Source of the DNA: a virus
Direction: 5' to 3' (one strand)
IMG/VR virus record: IMGVR_UViG_3300000115_000005
DNA: 64,000 nucleotides
The position numbers and the translations under genes were made by a program. Each line of letters begins with the position of its first letter. Within the stretch, counting starts at the first letter, position 1. Under the pieces are notes generated by a model. The model was not told where the DNA came from. It saw nothing but the letters and a program-made list of their open reading frames with translations, and did no database searches. Of the stretch, positions 7,333-49,883 are shown piece after piece.

Positions 7333-8007
7333 TTAATATATTGCTTTAGTAACATTTGGAAAGTTATCTCCTATTATAGACCAGCATTGCTTTGCAATTT
7401 CCATATGCTCTTTTTGCGTGCCATTTGACATTCGCAATCCACAATAATGTATCCATGATCTTAAAGTTCCCGACATATAAAGTTTACTCATCATAAGACC
7501 TTCAGGTAAAATACATCTAGCTTGTTCTTTTGCCATACCCTTATCTACTAAATGTTTATAACTATCAATTGCGAACTCTTTAATTTTTTTCTGCCTTTGT
7601 TCAAAGACATATTGTAAATAACTATGAGCTGGATTTTCTTCGTCCATCATAATACTATTTTGTCTATTTTTAGTATCTTGTAATCTTGATTCTCTTTGTG
7701 CAAATTCCAACTCTTTTGTTGGATCTGCGTATCTCTGACTAAACTCTTGAAAAGAAAATGATCTATGTCTCAATATTTGTCTTCCAATATCTCTTGTAGT
7801 GTTTATTTCTAACACAATATGCACCATCTCAAAAGGAGACCAATGTTTGTTATCAATTAAATATTTTATTAATTTGTCAGAACTTTCAAAATTATTTTGA
7901 TTACTTGGATTAGATACTCTAGCCATATAGATTATTGCATCTTCTGGAGTTTTACCTTTCAAATCGCCAAAGAATGACGAAATGCCAACTAAATGTACAT
8001 TTTTCAT
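7333..8007 (-). CDS. thyX: flavin-dependent thymidylate synthase
   Basis: HWSPFE and RQILRHRSFSFQEFSQRY (ThyX RHRx7S motif). Confidence 0.97.
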   Translation of the reverse strand: MKNVHLVGISSFFGDLKGKTPEDAIIYMARVSNPSNQNNFESSDKLIKYLIDNKHWSPFEMVHIVLEINTTRDIGRQILRHRSFSFQEFSQRYADPTKELEFAQRESRLQDTKNRQNSIMMDEENPAHSYLQYVFEQRQKKIKEFAIDSYKHLVDKGMAKEQARCILPEGLMMSKLYMSGTLRSWIHYCGLRMSNGTQKEHMEIAKQCWSIIGDNFPNVTKAIY

Positions 8008-28016: not shown

Positions 28017-29135
28017 TTATCGAATTATGTCAATCTCTTTATCACCTGTCCATACTTCTAAGTCTTTTCTGAGTCTTTTGTCGTTTTTAAGAGACATATA
28101 TCTGCTTGAGGCCTTCTTGACCCACCATTTAAATATATTCTCCAGATAGTGTTTATCGTGGTTATCCTTGTCTGGAATCAACTTATCTGTCTTACCAGTC
28201 ACTACATCAACAAAGTTTGAGAAACCATAATTACAAGCGTAATATCGTTTCTTTTCAGTTAAATTAAGAGCTTTATTGATTGTTTTATTATATCTTTCCA
28301 AATCCTCACCATCTAAATTAGCCTTGATAAGAGCCTGTATTTTTGTAGATATTTTAAGTTTTCTTGATGAGGCATCTTCTGGTACTATCGGTTCACCAAC
28401 AGCTTTTTCCATATAATCTCTTAAATCTTCATATGGTTTGCCGTGCATCAACGGTAAAAAATTAGAATCTGTAAGACCTTTAAATCGTAAAAATGGCTTC
28501 ATGCCATCATACTGTGAACTAGACTTTGATGAACCATACAAACTGGTCGTTTCAAATAAACAAGTATTCATACCTGGATATTTTGTATTCATTCTTTCAC
28601 GAACAAAGTGTGAACAACAAATACCAGCCAATAATTTACCACCAAGGTAATTAAAACCAAATGGTTGTGATGGCACAATTGCAAAACCCATAATTGATGT
28701 TTTATTAAATGATACTGCTGTTTTAGCATCTTGTGTAAAAACACAATCTAATAGTTGATTTCTTGGTTTCATATTAATTACAGGAGAACCAATACGAATA
28801 AAACCAAGCCACTTTTTACTATTCGTTTCTAATACACCTAATCGTAATGATTTTCCTGGAATACTTGTCATATTGGAATGAGATGAAATAATTTTAACAT
28901 AAATGTCCCACATATTTTGGTTCATTTCATGTATTTCTATATTCATATCTTCTGGGTGCATATCAAAGTTATCAAATAAATCTATTTCAGGTCCCATTCC
29001 TGGTAATCCAAAGGACATTTTTTCAACTGTACTTACTTTTTGATCACGAATATAATCTGCAATACCATCAAATTTATCAAAGTAATCTGAGAATACTTTG
29101 GCACCGTGTATAGCTTGTTCTTTAGTTATTTTCAT
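28017..29135 (-). CDS. DruA/DUF4338-like protein (paralogue 1)
   Basis: IVPSQPFGFNYLGGKLLA, ETTSLYG..SQYDG. Confidence 0.75.
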   Translation of the reverse strand: MKITKEQAIHGAKVFSDYFDKFDGIADYIRDQKVSTVEKMSFGLPGMGPEIDLFDNFDMHPEDMNIEIHEMNQNMWDIYVKIISSHSNMTSIPGKSLRLGVLETNSKKWLGFIRIGSPVINMKPRNQLLDCVFTQDAKTAVSFNKTSIMGFAIVPSQPFGFNYLGGKLLAGICCSHFVRERMNTKYPGMNTCLFETTSLYGSSKSSSQYDGMKPFLRFKGLTDSNFLPLMHGKPYEDLRDYMEKAVGEPIVPEDASSRKLKISTKIQALIKANLDGEDLERYNKTINKALNLTEKKRYYACNYGFSNFVDVVTGKTDKLIPDKDNHDKHYLENIFKWWVKKASSRYMSLKNDKRLRKDLEVWTGDKEIDIIR

Positions 29136-38294: not shown

Positions 38295-38789
38295 CTAAGC
38301 TGCTTTAGATTCTTGTAAAAGTTCAGGTTTAAGTAAATTGAGACTATTACTAATTTCAACTTTTCTTGGTTTTTTATGATCTGGTATAACATTCTCTAAA
38401 CCAACTCTTAAAATACCATCCTTAAACTCAGCACCTTTTACTTCTAGAGTATCAGCTACAGATAGGGTTTTTGTGAATGAGCGTGTACCTATACCTTTGT
38501 GTAAATATGAAACACTCTCAACTTCTTTTTCAATCTTTTCACCTCTAATAACTAAAGAGTTATCCTCTACTGTTATTTCAACTTCTTCTTTACTAAAGCC
38601 AGCAATAGCTAATTCAACAATATAATTGTTTTCATTAACCATTAATATATTATGTGGCGGAAAAGTTGAAGATGTTTTATTATTTAAGATTCTTTCGACA
38701 TCCTTAAATACTCTTTCAAAACCTAAAGTAGAGTGAGCTAATAGAGCTCTTTCTAGACCTTTAAAATGACCGGTTGTAATATCTACCAT
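38295..38789 (-). CDS. small heat-shock protein Hsp20
   Basis: FPPHNI, ELAIAGF, YLHKGIGTRSF, AEFKDGIL. Confidence 0.95.
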   Translation of the reverse strand: MVDITTGHFKGLERALLAHSTLGFERVFKDVERILNNKTSSTFPPHNILMVNENNYIVELAIAGFSKEEVEITVEDNSLVIRGEKIEKEVESVSYLHKGIGTRSFTKTLSVADTLEVKGAEFKDGILRVGLENVIPDHKKPRKVEISNSLNLLKPELLQESKAA

Positions 38790-38852
38790 TTTTAATTCTC
38801 CTTAAAATAAGCAAGTTAAACAATTGTGACCCTTTTTAGGCATCACTAATAT

Positions 38853-47362: not shown

Positions 47363-47420
47363 ATCCTAGAGGAAGGCTGCTCAACTGTCAAGCATTAATT
47401 TTGTTGTTAAAATACAACAA
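47363..47420 (-). promoter_or_regulatory. early sigma70-type promoter with upstream palindrome
   Basis: TTGTTG-N8-CAACAA, then TTGACA-17 nt-TAGGAT. Confidence 0.8.
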
Positions 47421-47423
47421 AGG

Positions 47424-47488
47424 TGGAGCGGTGTTGTGGAGTTGCACCACACTAATTACTGGGAGTAACTTGTCCTACGACCCACCGC
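47424..47488 (-). tRNA. non-canonical minimal tRNA-Gly(CCC)-like RNA, 65 nt
   Basis: GCGGTG/CACCGC acceptor stem + U73 + CCA; AGTTA-CTCCCAG-TAATT anticodon arm; TGTGG-TGCAACT-CCACA T arm; D arm reduced to GTC-GTAG-GAC. Confidence 0.75.
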
Positions 47489-47513
47489 AAATTATGTATA
47501 TACTATAACATAA

Positions 47514-48797
47514 CTATCTGCCAATTTGGGGCAAATATGAATCTTTTGTTTCATTCCATGATTTATATATTAAATCGTCATAAAATAAACTTTCTTTCGA
47601 TTCTCTACCTTTTTTGACCAATTGTTTAATTCTAGGTTTTGCATACTTGTATTTCCAAAGCTCTGATAGTGACTCTGTGGAATTATCAAATGCCTTTGTC
47701 AAATCATTTATTTCAGCTTCACCTCTCAAGTATGCACAGCTTTTATCATATAAGGGGCAAAAGTAAACACCTCTTGCGTGATCAGATTTCATTATTTCTT
47801 TTGGTATATTACCTAATTTACTATATGTGAAAGCATACGATCTATGCCTATGATCTCTTTTTAATTGTTGACCATTTGGTCTTTTGGCAACATACCATTC
47901 AAAATATTTTCGTGGGTGGTTTTTCATCAACCAATGTCTAATTTGATATATTGTTTTCTTTGTTGGTTCATATGAAACAGAACCACTTGTAAAGCCCATT
48001 GGCTTCCAATATTTTAAATTATCATATTGTGATAGACCACCTTTTTTTGTTTTACCATAAAGTGATGTTGTTGTTACACTTACTAAATCATCACCATAAT
48101 TTTTCTTCCATTGTGATTGTACCTGTTCTGATAAACAAAGTAAAGCTAATAGTTTACCACCAACATAATTAAAACCAAGAGGTTGTAATGGTACAATCGT
48201 AGAACCTATTGCTGTATGATTTAACATACCACTTTCTGTTTTGTAATTACGATCCCAACCAATAAATTTATCTCTTGGTGTTAAGTCAATAAAATCACCT
48301 GTAATGCAAATAACACCAAGATATTTTTTAGTTTTTTTATCACGAATAATATAAGCTAAATTACGGCCTATATTGGAGTTGTTTCTCATTGTAGATGTAA
48401 AAGTTCTAATAGCATTCCATATTTCTGGCATACCATCTTTACCACCTGTATAAATCATTTCAGGTTCTAACTCTAGGTAATCTTCATTTGTTTTTGGTTG
48501 CCAAATATTATTTTTAACCTCTGCTAAAGCTTTTCTTTGTTTCTCATCTTTTAATACTTGTCGTTCACCCTCCCACAAATCGTTTACTGTGATTGTTGGG
48601 TATCTTTGTTTTACTTCACAAAACTTTTGATATAGTGTATATTCTCTTACGTCCATTTGAGAAACATAAGATAAATCTGTTACAATGTTTTCTTTCAAAT
48701 CTGAATCTGATATATCATCAAATACTATTTCAGACTCACTCCACTTTTTCCATTGTGTTTCTACATCATCTTTTACATCATATTTGTATGTACTCAT
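47514..48797 (-). CDS. DruA/DUF4338-like protein (paralogue 2)
   Basis: NIGRNL, LTPRDKFIGW, IVPLQPLGFNYVGGKLLA, TTTSLYG..SQYD, GFTSG, HARGVY. Confidence 0.8.
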   Translation of the reverse strand: MSTYKYDVKDDVETQWKKWSESEIVFDDISDSDLKENIVTDLSYVSQMDVREYTLYQKFCEVKQRYPTITVNDLWEGERQVLKDEKQRKALAEVKNNIWQPKTNEDYLELEPEMIYTGGKDGMPEIWNAIRTFTSTMRNNSNIGRNLAYIIRDKKTKKYLGVICITGDFIDLTPRDKFIGWDRNYKTESGMLNHTAIGSTIVPLQPLGFNYVGGKLLALLCLSEQVQSQWKKNYGDDLVSVTTTSLYGKTKKGGLSQYDNLKYWKPMGFTSGSVSYEPTKKTIYQIRHWLMKNHPRKYFEWYVAKRPNGQQLKRDHRHRSYAFTYSKLGNIPKEIMKSDHARGVYFCPLYDKSCAYLRGEAEINDLTKAFDNSTESLSELWKYKYAKPRIKQLVKKGRESKESLFYDDLIYKSWNETKDSYLPQIGR

Positions 48798-49069
48798 TTA
48801 AGTGTAGAATCGCCATTAAAAATTGAATATTTTGTTTTTTGATTTGCATGGCCTTTTTCAGACTCATATGATACAAACTTTGAAATCATTTCTAGTTTAT
48901 CATGATATTCAGCCATTTTACCGAGTTCACTTTCTACACCTTCTGTCCAAGCCGTATGATCATGTATCGCCATTGGGTTATCAATCATAATCTCAACATT
49001 CATTCTGTGTTTATCCATTTGAGAGATAAGATGATTTTTAAGTGTAGTAATTATTTGTTCTGTTCTCAT
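48794..49069 (-). CDS. hypothetical protein
   Basis: coupled ORF; KHRMNVEI..IHDH..ELGKMAEYHDKLE. Confidence 0.75.
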   Translation of the reverse strand: MRTEQIITTLKNHLISQMDKHRMNVEIMIDNPMAIHDHTAWTEGVESELGKMAEYHDKLEMISKFVSYESEKGHANQKTKYSIFNGDSTLK

Positions 49070-49689
49070 TTTTTACTCCTTCGCTCCACTTTTTTTAATA
49101 ATTTATTTCTTTTTTCTTTAGCTCTTTTAAGTGCAAAAGGACTTGCATGATCAATCATTCTAATACCATTCATATGATCTAGTTCATGAAAGTAACATTT
49201 GGCTGATAAACCATCAAACCTTTGTGTCATTTCTTTACCTTCAGCATTAGTGAATTTACCTACAACCCACTTAGGCCTTCTCACACTTATTATTAAACCT
49301 GGATAAGATAAACATCCTTCTTTAGAAATTTCTTCTTGTTCTGATTGATCTTCTATTTCAGGATTAATACAGGCAATACATATCTCTTCATTACCTATAA
49401 TAAAAAATCTTTCATTTATACCAACTTGATTTGCTGATAAACCAATACCGCCACTATGTTTCATTGTCAACCACATTCTGTGTAATAAAGTATTCCAATA
49501 TTCATCAGGTAAACTATCAACAAATTTTGGCATAGAAGTTTTAAGTATAACATCATTTTCACTTACAAAAGGCAAAAGTTTATCTTTAGCAAAATCAGTA
49601 TTTTTTTTAATTGATCCTCTAACTGTATCAACAGTAGTATTTTTAACTCCTATACCTGTATCAATTTTTAATATATTTTCGTCACTCAT
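49066..49689 (-). CDS. def: peptide deformylase
   Basis: GIGLSANQVG, EGCLS, HELDHMNG; likely start MSDENI. Confidence 0.95.
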   Translation of the reverse strand: MSDENILKIDTGIGVKNTTVDTVRGSIKKNTDFAKDKLLPFVSENDVILKTSMPKFVDSLPDEYWNTLLHRMWLTMKHSGGIGLSANQVGINERFFIIGNEEICIACINPEIEDQSEQEEISKEGCLSYPGLIISVRRPKWVVGKFTNAEGKEMTQRFDGLSAKCYFHELDHMNGIRMIDHASPFALKRAKEKRNKLLKKVERRSKK

Positions 49690-49883
49690 TTTAAAACCCA
49701 ATCCTCTGCGTTAGCTTCAACATCAAATTCATTATGTGCTATTATACTATTAACTAATATTTTATCTTTATAACATTTTGCAATATAACTATTTCCACCA
49801 CCATGTACTTTGTAATAAACTTTAGCTACTTTTGTACCATCATCTGAATAAAACTCTGACAAAAATTCTTCTTTTTCTAACAT
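49686..49883 (-). CDS. hypothetical protein
   Basis: coupled ORF ending AEDWVLK downstream of gp46. Confidence 0.7.
   Translation of the reverse strand: MLEKEEFLSEFYSDDGTKVAKVYYKVHGGGNSYIAKCYKDKILVNSIIAHNEFDVEANAEDWVLK

What the first reader, a model, noticed from the sequence alone, without database searches (positions are those of the whole stretch)
47424..48797. Minimal non-proteinogenic-looking tRNA-Gly paired with a DruA/DUF4338-like gene: candidate glycyl-tRNA-dependent modification system
Seen: 25 nt after the stop of the DUF4338-like gene, on the same strand, lies GCGGUG-G-GUCGUAGGAC-A-AGUUA-CUCCCAG-UAAUU-AG-UGUGG-UGCAACU-CCACA-A-CACCGC-U-CCA (65 nt). It keeps the bacterial GlyRS identity elements (G1:C72, C2:G71, U73, C35C36) and an encoded CCA. 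It has lost features needed for translation: the D arm is a 3-bp stub, the variable loop is 2 nt, there is a G7.A66 mismatch, and GUGC replaces GT-psi-C. Known: staphylococcal non-proteinogenic tRNA-Gly species have the same GUGC substitution, bind EF-Tu poorly and donate glycine to FemXAB GNAT-fold transferases. Inference: this RNA is a dedicated glycyl carrier for the adjacent enzyme, e.g. for glycyl modification of DNA bases, protein or cell envelope. Alternatively it is a decoy for anticodon nucleases. Standard tRNA finders would likely miss it or call it a pseudogene.
Basis: partly seen in the sequence, partly recalled or inferred. Interest (0 to 1): 0.9.

Follow-up and report, generated by a model that had tools for sequence, protein, structure and literature searches.

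The report
Phage mini glycine-tRNA beside DruA acyltransferase
A SAR11-type T4-like phage carries, right after an acyltransferase gene whose nearest solved relative is phage Mu's glycyl-tRNA-using DNA modifier Mom, a conserved shrunken glycine tRNA that looks loadable with glycine but mostly unfit for decoding, which points to an untested system that brings its own activated glycine.

Summary
A 65-nt RNA gene lies at 47424-47488 (-), 25 nt after the stop of a DruA/DUF4338 gene. ARAGORN and the Rfam tRNA model both miss it.

It is real and conserved:
- 61 distinct relatives (63-69 nt) in viral contigs fold into the same four-arm cloverleaf, with strong covariation. This includes an elbow pair between the D loop and the T loop.
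- Pairs 1-4 with 69-72, U73, CCA and a CC in the middle loop never vary. These are the bacterial GlyRS determinants.
- Only 23 of 61 can form a normal 7-nt anticodon loop. Canonical tRNA-Gly genes sit beside it in some phages, so it is not a decaying copy.
- Of 73 distinct loci with the long DruA paralogue, 64 have the RNA within 100 nt and 4 more within 1 kb.

The protein model is confident (pLDDT 95) and has a GNAT core. Its top PDB match is Mu Mom (Z 9.9), tied with ordinary GNATs. There is no sequence-level link to Mom.

Published work shows that Mom transfers glycine from Gly-tRNAGly to DNA adenine. A dedicated glycyl donor is therefore the best reading, but charging, transfer and target are untested.

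This scan found the same pairing before in at least 11 other genomes.

The parts
47424..47488 (-). Miniature tRNA-Gly-like RNA gene, 65 nt. Layout: acceptor 5' strand 47488-47482; D stub 47481-47472; middle (anticodon-like) arm 47470-47454 with CCC at 47463-47461; T arm 47451-47435; acceptor 3' strand 47434-47428; U73 at 47427; CCA at 47426-47424.
   Evidence: Sequence. Own covariance model R1 scores it 75.2 bits, E 8e-16. Covariation over 61 homologues. Tertiary 19:56-like pair.
47502..47510 (-). Extended -10 promoter element (TGnTATAGT) for the RNA. It starts 3 nt after the DruA stop codon, and its -10 hexamer ends 13 nt before G1. This implies a short 5' leader for RNase P to remove.
   Evidence: Read. 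One search shows a -10-like hexamer (TATAAT, TATAGT or TAGAAT) 8-13 nt upstream of G1 in most homologues, many with TG or with a perfect TTGACA at 17 nt. The two-hexamer scan does not list it, because this copy has no -35.
47399..47422 (-). A+T-rich hairpin directly after the encoded CCA. It is a 3' trailer or weak terminator. Some relatives have a clear G+C hairpin followed by a T run at this place.
   Evidence: Fold of 47380-47520. L035 and L050 downstream sequences.
47363..47391 (-). Sigma-70-type promoter (TTGACA, 17 nt, TAGGAT) of the next gene, a 793-aa peptidase. It marks the end of the RNA unit.
   Evidence: the peptidase is phrog_459.
47514..48797 (-). Long DruA/DUF4338-family protein, 427 aa. 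Its GNAT-fold core spans about residues 105-360. A helical plus beta-hairpin N-terminal region and C-terminal helices pack onto the core.
   Evidence: Pfam PF14236, E 9e-17. PADLOC DruA, E 1e-20. AlphaFold2 pLDDT 95.2, pTM 0.92. Mom 8bv8_B Z 9.9, 172 of 202 residues aligned.
48794..49701 (-). Upstream genes that overlap by 4 nt in a chain ending at the DruA gene: peptide deformylase (49066-49701) and a 91-aa ORF of unknown function (48794-49069). They probably form one operon with DruA.
   Evidence: ORF coordinates. Pfam Pep_deformylase. phrog_2890 and phrog_1811.
28017..29135 (-). Second, shorter DruA paralogue (372 aa, phrog_19197) directly behind the gp41-like DnaB helicase gene. It has no tRNA-like RNA beside it. 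It may be a partner or a second specificity.
   Evidence: 33% identity over the core, E 1e-19. R1 finds only one RNA in the window.

Best explanation
The RNA is a phage-encoded tRNA-Gly derivative that is not used for decoding. It most likely serves as a private glycyl carrier for the adjacent DruA-family GNAT enzyme.

Proposed steps:
1. Its own early sigma-70-type promoter makes a short precursor. RNase P and 3' trimming release a 65-nt L-shaped RNA that ends in the encoded CCA. (Promoter and fold are supported by comparison; processing is inferred.)
2. Host GlyRS charges it, because it keeps G1-C72, C2-G71, G3-C70, U73 and C35/C36. (Inferred from invariant identity elements.)
3. The stub D arm, the non-TPsiC T loop, a purine-purine mismatch at the base of the acceptor stem and, in most relatives, a 4-6-nt 'anticodon' loop keep it out of translation. 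The glycyl pool is thereby reserved. (Inferred; precedent in the S. aureus non-proteogenic tRNAGly.)
4. The GNAT takes the glycyl group from the CCA end and puts it on an acceptor. By analogy with Mu Mom, and from the replication-module context of the family, the acceptor is most likely a base in phage DNA. (Inferred; not tested.)
For: RNA is real and tRNA-shaped:
- 61 distinct homologues with compensatory changes in all four helices.
- A D-loop:T-loop pair covaries as G:C 29, A:U 27, U:A 1 and G:U 2, with only 2 mismatches.

Glycine identity:
- Pairs 1-4 with 69-72, U73 and CCA are invariant, while the other stems vary freely.
- All 61 loops hold CC, with ACC, UCC or CCC triplets.
- Canonical phage tRNA-Gly genes in the same contigs share this acceptor end.
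- The GlyRS determinants are listed in PMC7826273.

Not for decoding:
- Only 23 of 61 can form a 5-bp stem plus 7-nt loop.
- ARAGORN of 61, and Rfam tRNA finds none.
- It coexists with canonical tRNA-Gly genes 1-150 nt away.

Own promoter.

Linkage to the long DruA gene:
- Of 73 distinct long-DruA loci, 64 have the RNA within 100 nt, 4 within 1 kb and 2 at 7-8 kb.
- Mosig and HTVC008M instead carry a self-promoted 74-nt odd tRNA-Gly(ACC) 4-6.5 kb downstream.
- Five cyanophages that have only the short paralogue lack the RNA.

Enzyme:
- GNAT fold; the top PDB match is Mom.
- Mom of a Salmonella phage is the first named viral neighbour.
- Family members lie next to DNA polymerase, clamp loader, helicase, UvsX or ParB-like genes.

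Precedent: Mom transfers Gly from Gly-tRNAGly to N6-adenine and is selective for the tRNAGly acceptor end (PMC13219725).
Against: - There are no expression, charging or activity data.
- Mom's Z of 9.9 is within 1 unit of CoA-dependent GNATs such as SpeG at 9.4, so the tool treats them as tied.
- The profile comparison with Mom is null (probability 1.5%).
- The family keeps a conserved Q-P-x-G-x-N stretch where GNATs bind the CoA pyrophosphate, so an acyl-CoA donor is not excluded.
- The linkage comes from one clade of related phages, so it may partly reflect shared ancestry.
- More distant long-DruA homologues (44-46% identity) have no such RNA within 4-5 kb.
- In some phages the RNA sits in the tRNA cluster, 7-8 kb from the enzyme gene.
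- The window's own copy has a perfectly canonical CUCCCAG loop and could still decode GGG.
Confidence: 0.5

Rival explanations
1. It is a working, structurally reduced decoding tRNA-Gly that supplements host tRNAs for GGN codons. Its position next to the DruA gene is only inherited synteny.
For: The window copy has a canonical 7-nt loop with U33, CCC and A37. The RNA lies inside tRNA gene clusters in some contigs. The HTVC008M 74-nt relative scores 49.5 bits on Rfam tRNA and is called tRNA-Gly(ACC) by ARAGORN. The tRNA elbow pair is kept.
Against: 38 of 61 family members cannot form a 7-nt anticodon loop; the largest subtype has 4-nt CCCC or CCCA loops. Close kin of the window (96% protein identity) have a 6-nt loop. 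Position 37 is often C. Phages that carry it also keep a canonical tRNA-Gly beside it. 57 of 61 have a mismatch at 6:67 or 7:66.
Confidence: 0.1
2. It is a decoy or sponge. A tRNA-Gly look-alike soaks up a host factor that attacks or senses tRNA-Gly, such as an anticodon nuclease, a TacT-type GNAT toxin that acetylates Gly-tRNAGly, or GlyRS regulation. It works independently of the DruA enzyme.
For: It keeps exactly the parts that proteins recognise (acceptor end, CC loop, L-shape) while decoding geometry is lost. It has a strong early-type promoter. GNAT toxins that act on Gly-tRNAGly are known (TacT, cited in PMC13219725).
Against: This does not explain why the RNA follows the long DruA gene in 68 of 73 loci and is absent from phages with only the short paralogue. 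No tRNA-Gly-specific defence is known in SAR11-type hosts (my own knowledge, not tested here).
Confidence: 0.12
3. The RNA is the enzyme's substrate, not its donor. The GNAT uses an acyl-CoA to acylate the RNA or its glycyl group, as TacT/AtaT or TmcA do. This would make a modified RNA with a regulatory or priming role.
For: The conserved Q-P-x-G-x-N stretch lies at the usual CoA-binding loop. CoA-dependent GNATs tie with Mom in the fold search. Known GNATs do take tRNA as substrate (PMC13219725).
Against: No role is known for such a product in a phage. The family sits in replication and DNA-binding contexts. Mom aligns over the most residues, 172 against about 145-150.
Confidence: 0.12
4. It is a regulatory small RNA. 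Its C-rich hairpin loop pairs with Shine-Dalgarno sequences such as the GGGAG of the downstream peptidase gene, and the tRNA-like look is incidental.
For: The loop (UCCC-type) is complementary to the downstream ribosome-binding site over 6 nt (read). Some bacteria use C-rich loop sRNAs of this kind (my own knowledge).
Against: The invariant positions are the acceptor stem, U73 and CCA, not the loop flanks. The 19:56-type tertiary covariation and the four-way junction are tRNA features. The same RNA occurs in tRNA clusters with different downstream genes.
Confidence: 0.03

Closest known systems
Mom of bacteriophage Mu (Pfam PF25680; PDB 8bv8), a Gly-tRNAGly-dependent N6-adenine modifier of dsDNA (PMC13219725; preprint 10.1101/2023.03.24.534169)
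   Same: It is a phage GNAT-fold enzyme and the top solved structural match (Z 9.9, rmsd 4.0, 172 of 202 residues). Both have an extra helical insertion late in the GNAT core. The inferred co-substrate is a glycyl-tRNAGly-type molecule recognised at the acceptor end.
   Different: There is no detectable sequence relation (hhalign probability 1.5%; separate Pfam families). The window protein is twice as long, with added N- and C-terminal parts. Mom uses the host's ordinary tRNAGly isoacceptors and has no RNA gene of its own. The activity, target and product of the DruA protein are unknown.
Non-proteogenic tRNAGly isoacceptors of Staphylococcus aureus, with FmhB/FemA/FemB (PMC7826273)
   Same: These are extra tRNAGly species that keep the GlyRS determinants (G1-C72, C2-G71, U73, C35, C36). 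Their altered D and T arms divert Gly-tRNA from EF-Tu to a GNAT-fold transferase.
   Different: The staphylococcal RNAs are full-size tRNAs found by standard tools, and they feed peptidoglycan synthesis. The RNA here has a 3-bp D stub, often has no decoding loop, is encoded by a phage and is paired with a DruA-family GNAT rather than a Fem-family one (FemA Z 8.1, rank 32).
DruA (DUF4338, PF14236) of the type I Druantia anti-phage system
   Same: Same Pfam and PADLOC family. The domain has been called a GNAT in the literature (PMC10853773).
   Different: It is encoded by a phage. Neither flanking gene is a Druantia partner; the neighbours are a peptide deformylase and a peptidase. No co-substrate or RNA partner has been reported for Druantia DruA in the papers searched.
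Phage-encoded tRNA genes and the small stable RNAs of T4-type tRNA clusters
   Same: Encoded by T4-like phages, in some relatives inside the tRNA cluster. It has an encoded CCA and is probably processed by RNase P.
   Different: It is not recognised by tRNA models, mostly lacks a decoding loop, and its position follows one enzyme gene.

Membership tests
tRNA (Rfam RF00005) / bacterial tRNA-Gly | Scores above the family threshold with the tRNA covariance model or a standard tRNA finder | tested here: not met
   No RF00005 hit at E<=10 for the window copy or for seven relatives. ARAGORN of 61 in standard mode and 15 of 61 in mitochondrial mode, 8 of them as Gly.
tRNA (Rfam RF00005) / bacterial tRNA-Gly | Four-arm cloverleaf with a 7-position acceptor stem, discriminator, CCA and a D-loop:T-loop elbow pair | tested here: met
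   Covariation is seen in all four helices. The 19:56-like pair is G:C 29, A:U 27, U:A 1 and G:U 2 of 61. However, the D arm is only 3 bp with a 3-5-nt loop, and 57 of 61 have one mismatch at 6:67 or 7:66.
tRNA (Rfam RF00005) / bacterial tRNA-Gly | 7-nt anticodon loop with U33, an NCC anticodon and a purine at position 37 | tested here: inconclusive
   Met in the window copy (CUCCCAG). Across the family only 23 of 61 can form it, and many of those have C37.
tRNA (Rfam RF00005) / bacterial tRNA-Gly | GlyRS identity elements present, and the RNA is glycylated | tested here: inconclusive
   The sequence elements G1-C72, C2-G71, G3-C70, U73 and CC in the loop are invariant. Charging itself cannot be tested with these tools.
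Mom family (Pfam PF25680) | Sequence membership (Pfam model or profile match to Mu Mom) | tested here: not met
   A Pfam scan at E<=10 lists only DruA. hhalign of the family alignment against Mu Mom gives probability 1.5%. PDB sequence searches are empty.
Mom family (Pfam PF25680) | GNAT fold with the Mom-type late insertion; Mom as the specific nearest structure | tested here: inconclusive
   Mom ranks first of 48,161 representatives (Z 9.9, 172 residues aligned). It is within 1 Z unit of many CoA-dependent GNATs. Foldseek alone gives only weak GNAT hits.
Mom family (Pfam PF25680) | Catalytic residues equivalent to Mom R111, S124, D149 and R151 | not tested
   No residue-level superposition was available. 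A by-eye alignment suggests they are not conserved as such.
Mom family (Pfam PF25680) | Transfers glycine from Gly-tRNAGly to N6 of adenine in dsDNA | not testable with these tools
   This needs biochemistry or nucleoside mass spectrometry.
DruA / DUF4338 (Pfam PF14236) | Matches the family model above its curated cut-off | tested here: met
   61.6 bits against 27. PADLOC DruA E 1e-20. 893 relatives at E<=1e-3 in the representative library.
Druantia type I defence system | druA accompanied by druB-druE (DUF1998 helicase) in one operon in a cellular genome | tested here: not met
   The neighbours are peptide deformylase, a 91-aa ORF, a peptidase and a gp46-like ATPase, in a T4-like phage contig.
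Fem-type aminoacyl-tRNA transferases with non-proteogenic tRNAGly | Fem-family tandem-GNAT transferase | tested here: inconclusive
   No FemAB Pfam hit. FemA appears only at Z 8.1, rank 32, among generic GNATs.
Fem-type aminoacyl-tRNA transferases with non-proteogenic tRNAGly | tRNAGly variant that binds EF-Tu poorly and is preferred by the transferase | not testable with these tools
   Only the sequence features (altered D and T arms, acceptor mismatch) can be seen here.

The most novel reading that the evidence does not exclude
The DruA/DUF4338 family as a whole, including DruA of the Druantia defence system, consists of aminoacyl-tRNA-dependent transferases. In SAR11-type and related freshwater T4-like phages the enzyme has recruited a private glycyl carrier that is insulated from the ribosome. 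With it the phage installs a glycine-derived hypermodification on its own DNA. This would be a new DNA-modification system in some of the most abundant viruses in the ocean, and the first RNA cofactor gene dedicated to a DNA-modifying enzyme.
Probability: 0.3. Interest if true: 0.9.

Novelty: new variant of a known kind. Interest (0 to 1): 0.8.

Why it matters
Use of charged tRNA outside the ribosome by GNAT enzymes is known for cell walls, lipids, the N-degron pathway and, since 2023/2026, for DNA modification by Mu Mom.

Three things would be new here:
1. A virus that encodes its own miniaturised tRNA-Gly, apparently no longer used for decoding, as a dedicated donor.
2. The first concrete co-substrate clue for the large DruA/DUF4338 family. 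This family includes a component of the Druantia defence system whose biochemistry is unknown.
3. An RNA family that is absent from Rfam and invisible to tRNA finders, so it is missing from phage annotations. The related 74-nt genes are not annotated in the HTVC008M or Mosig records.

The hypothesis is directly testable, because HTVC008M, Mosig and their host are in culture.

Tried and rejected
The records behind L187-L190 are not held.
- Sequence link to solved structures: phmmer and a profile search of the PDB found nothing. hhalign against Mu Mom found only a 17-column RGVY stretch at probability 1.5%.
- N-terminal region alone (residues 1-105): the fold came out at pLDDT 70 and pTM 0.34. 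That is too poor to search, so no claim is made about a DNA-binding domain. The protein atlas gave no lead for it.
- blastn of the 65-nt RNA against 50,697 phage records: no match.
- The weak Rfam hit to Tymo_tRNA-like (13.4 bits, E 1.8) was judged to be chance plus general tRNA-likeness.
- The anti-Shine-Dalgarno sRNA idea was considered and set aside because the conservation pattern is that of a tRNA.
- Short fragments with the RNA but no DruA gene (L064, L089, L153, L157, L158) are 2-9% complete, so they are uninformative about co-occurrence.
- Complex prediction was not used. The report does not claim that the two paralogues bind each other.
Full report
**Where the window comes from.** The window is part of a 103-kb IMG/VR viral contig estimated to be 57% complete. 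Its nearest cultured relatives are the T4-like Pelagibacter phages Mosig and HTVC008M, at about 66% nucleotide identity over this locus.

**The observation.**
- The RNA begins 25 nt after the stop of the 427-aa ORF 47514-48797(-). That ORF is a DruA/DUF4338 family member: Pfam 61.6 bits against a cut-off of 27 and PADLOC DruA E 1e-20.
- ARAGORN finds no tRNA in the window.
- The Rfam tRNA model gives no hit even at E<=10.
- Folding the single sequence gives the cloverleaf, but only at z = -1.7. The case therefore rests on comparison with relatives.

**Conservation of the RNA.**
- I fetched loci encoding relatives of the protein and read their 3' flanks. The same element appeared after the stop codon in nearly all of them.
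- I built a covariance model from them (R1). It recovers all of them at 51-75 bits. It also finds a second, tandem paralogue of 69 nt (46-50 bits) right behind the first in seven contigs.
- On the model-guided alignment of 61 distinct sequences, 87% of cells pair against 68% in shuffles. The covariation score is 0.431 against 0.122 (0 of 500 shuffles reach it), and slid registers give 0.08-0.15.
- Thirteen of the 20 pairs show changes on both sides, spread over all four helices. In the D stub only the third pair does: it runs through U-A, G-C, C-G and A-U.
- Pairs 1-4 with 69-72, U73 and CCA never vary.

**It is shaped like a tRNA but mostly cannot decode.**
- The last D-loop base and the third T-loop base covary as a Watson-Crick pair: G:C 29, A:U 27, U:A 1 and G:U 2, with 2 mismatches. 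Within the window's own subtype there is a G:C, G:U, A:U series. This is the 19:56 elbow pair of tRNAs, so the RNA very probably forms an L-shape.
- Every one of the 61 middle loops holds CC, inside ACC, UCC or CCC triplets, all of which are glycine anticodons.
- Only 23 of 61 can form a 5-bp stem with a 7-nt loop. The largest subtype has 4-nt loops. Relatives of the window at 96% protein identity have a 6-nt loop.
- 57 of 61 carry one mismatch, usually purine-purine, at 6:67 or 7:66.
- ARAGORN calls none of the 61 in standard mode, and Rfam tRNA detects none of those tested.
- The window's own copy is one of those that keep a canonical loop (CUCCCAG).
- The invariant acceptor end is the same as that of the canonical phage tRNA-Gly genes in the same contigs. 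It also matches the GlyRS determinants listed in PMC7826273.

**It is not a decaying duplicate.**
- In contigs where the RNA is not next to the DruA gene, it lies in the phage tRNA cluster.
- There it is 1-150 nt from an intact canonical tRNA-Gly (UCC or GCC) in L070/L097/L171, L157, L158 and L078. L064 has a weaker tRNA-like element with a GCC triplet just downstream (26.6 bits, below the Rfam cut-off of 29; not called by ARAGORN).
- Both genes are therefore maintained side by side.

**Expression signals.**
- Most copies have a -10 hexamer (TATAAT, TATAGT or TAGAAT) 8-13 nt upstream of G1. Many also have a TG extension or a perfect TTGACA at 17 nt.
- In the window the element is TGnTATAGT at 47510-47502, starting 3 nt after the DruA stop codon.
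- Some relatives have a clear intrinsic terminator right after CCA (L035, L050). The window has an A+T-rich hairpin there, followed by the promoter of the peptidase gene.

**Linkage to the enzyme gene.** I tallied 73 distinct loci that have a complete long-DruA C-terminus at 50% identity or more.

| Position of the RNA relative to the long DruA gene | Loci |
|---|---|
| Within 100 nt downstream, same strand | 64 |
| 101-1000 nt downstream (an inserted gene lies between) | 4 |
| 7-8 kb away | 2 |
| Too little flank to tell | 1 |
| Not found in the held flank (Mosig, HTVC008M) | 2 |

- Mosig and HTVC008M each have, 4-6.5 kb downstream on the same strand, a 74-nt tRNA-Gly(ACC)-like gene with its own promoter and a non-canonical T loop. 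Neither gene is annotated in the regions of the records I looked at.
- Five cyanomyoviruses that carry only the short DruA paralogue have no such RNA.
- More distant long-DruA homologues (44-46% identity) have none within 4-5 kb.
- The association is therefore strong, but it is confined to one clade. Shared ancestry cannot be fully separated from function.

**The protein.**
- The AlphaFold2 model is confident (pLDDT 95.2, pTM 0.92).
- Foldseek gives only weak GNAT hits.
- An exhaustive structural alignment to 48,161 PDB representatives, and a second look at Foldseek's top 1000, both put the crystal structure of Mu Mom first. Chain 8bv8_B scores Z 9.9 with rmsd 4.0 and 172 of 202 residues aligned, against model residues 105-360.
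- Ordinary CoA-dependent GNATs follow at Z 9.4-8, which the tool treats as tied. FemA is at Z 8.1.
- Among predicted viral structures, after family members from giant viruses and phages, a Mom protein is the first named neighbour with a related function.
- There is no link to Mom at sequence level.
- The family keeps a Q-P-x-G-x-N stretch at the usual CoA-binding loop.
- The phage has a second, shorter paralogue at 28017-29135, directly behind the gp41-like helicase gene. Its orthologues sit between the clamp-loader genes gp44 and gp62 in cyanomyoviruses, and one is annotated 'methylcarbamoylase mom'.
- Other family members lie next to DNA polymerase B, UvsX, RNase H or a ParB-like gene, and in one contig the long and short forms are adjacent. 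This context points to DNA.

**Literature.**
- PMC10853773 calls DUF4338 a GNAT domain.
- PMC13219725 and its 2023 preprint show that Mu Mom transfers glycine from Gly-tRNAGly to N6 of adenine in dsDNA. It accepts all three E. coli tRNAGly isoacceptors but not Gly-tRNAAla, and probably reads the acceptor end.
- PMC7826273 describes the S. aureus non-proteogenic tRNAGly species, which are partitioned away from EF-Tu towards a GNAT-fold transferase.
- None of the papers that mention DUF4338 or DruA link the family to tRNA as a co-substrate.

**Most likely mechanism.**
- Shown by comparison: the RNA is a selected, independently promoted, L-shaped tRNA-Gly derivative whose recognition elements are frozen while its decoding loop is free to decay. 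It is genetically tied to the long DruA GNAT.
- Inferred: GlyRS charges it; it is a poor EF-Tu and ribosome substrate; and the GNAT takes its glycyl group for transfer to an acceptor, most likely a DNA base as in Mom.
- I put this at about 0.5.
- The rivals are an ordinary decoding tRNA (0.1), a decoy for tRNA-Gly-directed host factors (0.12), the RNA as substrate of a CoA-using GNAT (0.12) and a C-loop regulatory sRNA (0.03).

**Novelty.**
- Both halves have precedents: Mom, and the staphylococcal non-proteogenic tRNAGly. What is new is their combination in a phage with a miniaturised private carrier and a DruA-family enzyme, so I class it as a new variant of a known kind.
- The RNA family is not in Rfam.
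- Earlier follow-ups in this scan reached the same reading on at least 11 other genomes. That is not independent evidence, but it shows the pairing is widespread.
- The main weaknesses are the absence of any expression or biochemical data, the tie between Mom and generic GNATs, and the single-clade nature of the linkage.

Noticed in passing
window 38784-38849 (-), upstream of ORF 38295-38789 (-): A ROSE_3 RNA-thermometer match (45.6 bits against a cut-off of 43) ends on the start of a phage Hsp20 gene (Pfam HSP20, E 1e-17). It looks like a genuine heat-responsive leader on a phage small heat-shock gene. A weaker ROSE_3 hit (28.7 bits) occurs in relative L064 at 2820-2887.
   Followed up: partly
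window 28017-29135 (-): Second DruA-family paralogue (372 aa, phrog_19197), directly behind the DnaB/gp41-like helicase gene. Its orthologues sit between gp44 and gp62 in cyanomyoviruses. In contig L187 the long and short forms are adjacent, which hints at a two-subunit enzyme (Mom is an obligate dimer).
   Followed up: partly
L147 4448-4516, L030 2913-2981, L139 4120-4188(-), L132 1955-2023(-), L091 287-355(-): A second mini tRNA-Gly paralogue of 69 nt follows 3-6 nt after the first. Its acceptor stem (GCGGGA / UCCCGC) is closer to canonical tRNA-Gly, it has a UCC triplet, and its T loop is UGCGAAU. Some phages therefore carry two different carriers in tandem.
   Followed up: partly
L185 1501-1574 (HTVC008M record 91140-91213, +); L184 1501-1574 (-) (Mosig record 7779-7852): Unannotated 74-nt tRNA-Gly(ACC)-like genes with their own TTGACA/-10 promoters and non-canonical T loops. 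In HTVC008M the gene lies just upstream of the phage S21 gene. ARAGORN calls only the HTVC008M copy.
   Followed up: partly
window 47399-47422 (-), and the same place in many loci: Recurrent A+T-rich hairpins of the form TGTTG, 6-9 nt, CAACA lie just upstream of TTGACA early promoters. They are reminiscent of the promoter-early stem-loop cassettes of T4-type phages.
   Followed up: no
L046, L164, L075 (546-547 nt) and L034 (765 nt) between the DruA stop and the RNA: An extra stretch is inserted between the enzyme gene and the RNA in some contigs. It looks like a small gene on the opposite strand. The pair stays together across it.
   Followed up: no
contigs of P0011 (no DNA held): A 414-aa ParB_N-domain gene lies directly upstream of a 480-aa DruA homologue (43% identical), near a phage integrase. 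This is another DNA-binding neighbour for the family.
   Followed up: no
L095, L164, L086, L155, L073, L049, L020 and others, 5-30 nt after the CCA: A conserved short hairpin (GTTAGT, 4 nt, ACTAAC type) follows the RNA in one subgroup. Its function is unknown.
   Followed up: no
window 48794-49701 (-): Peptide deformylase, a 91-aa ORF (phrog_1811) and the DruA gene overlap by 4 nt each, which suggests translational coupling. A large peptidase follows the RNA. Glycyl transfer to a protein N-terminus is therefore a conceivable alternative target.
   Followed up: no
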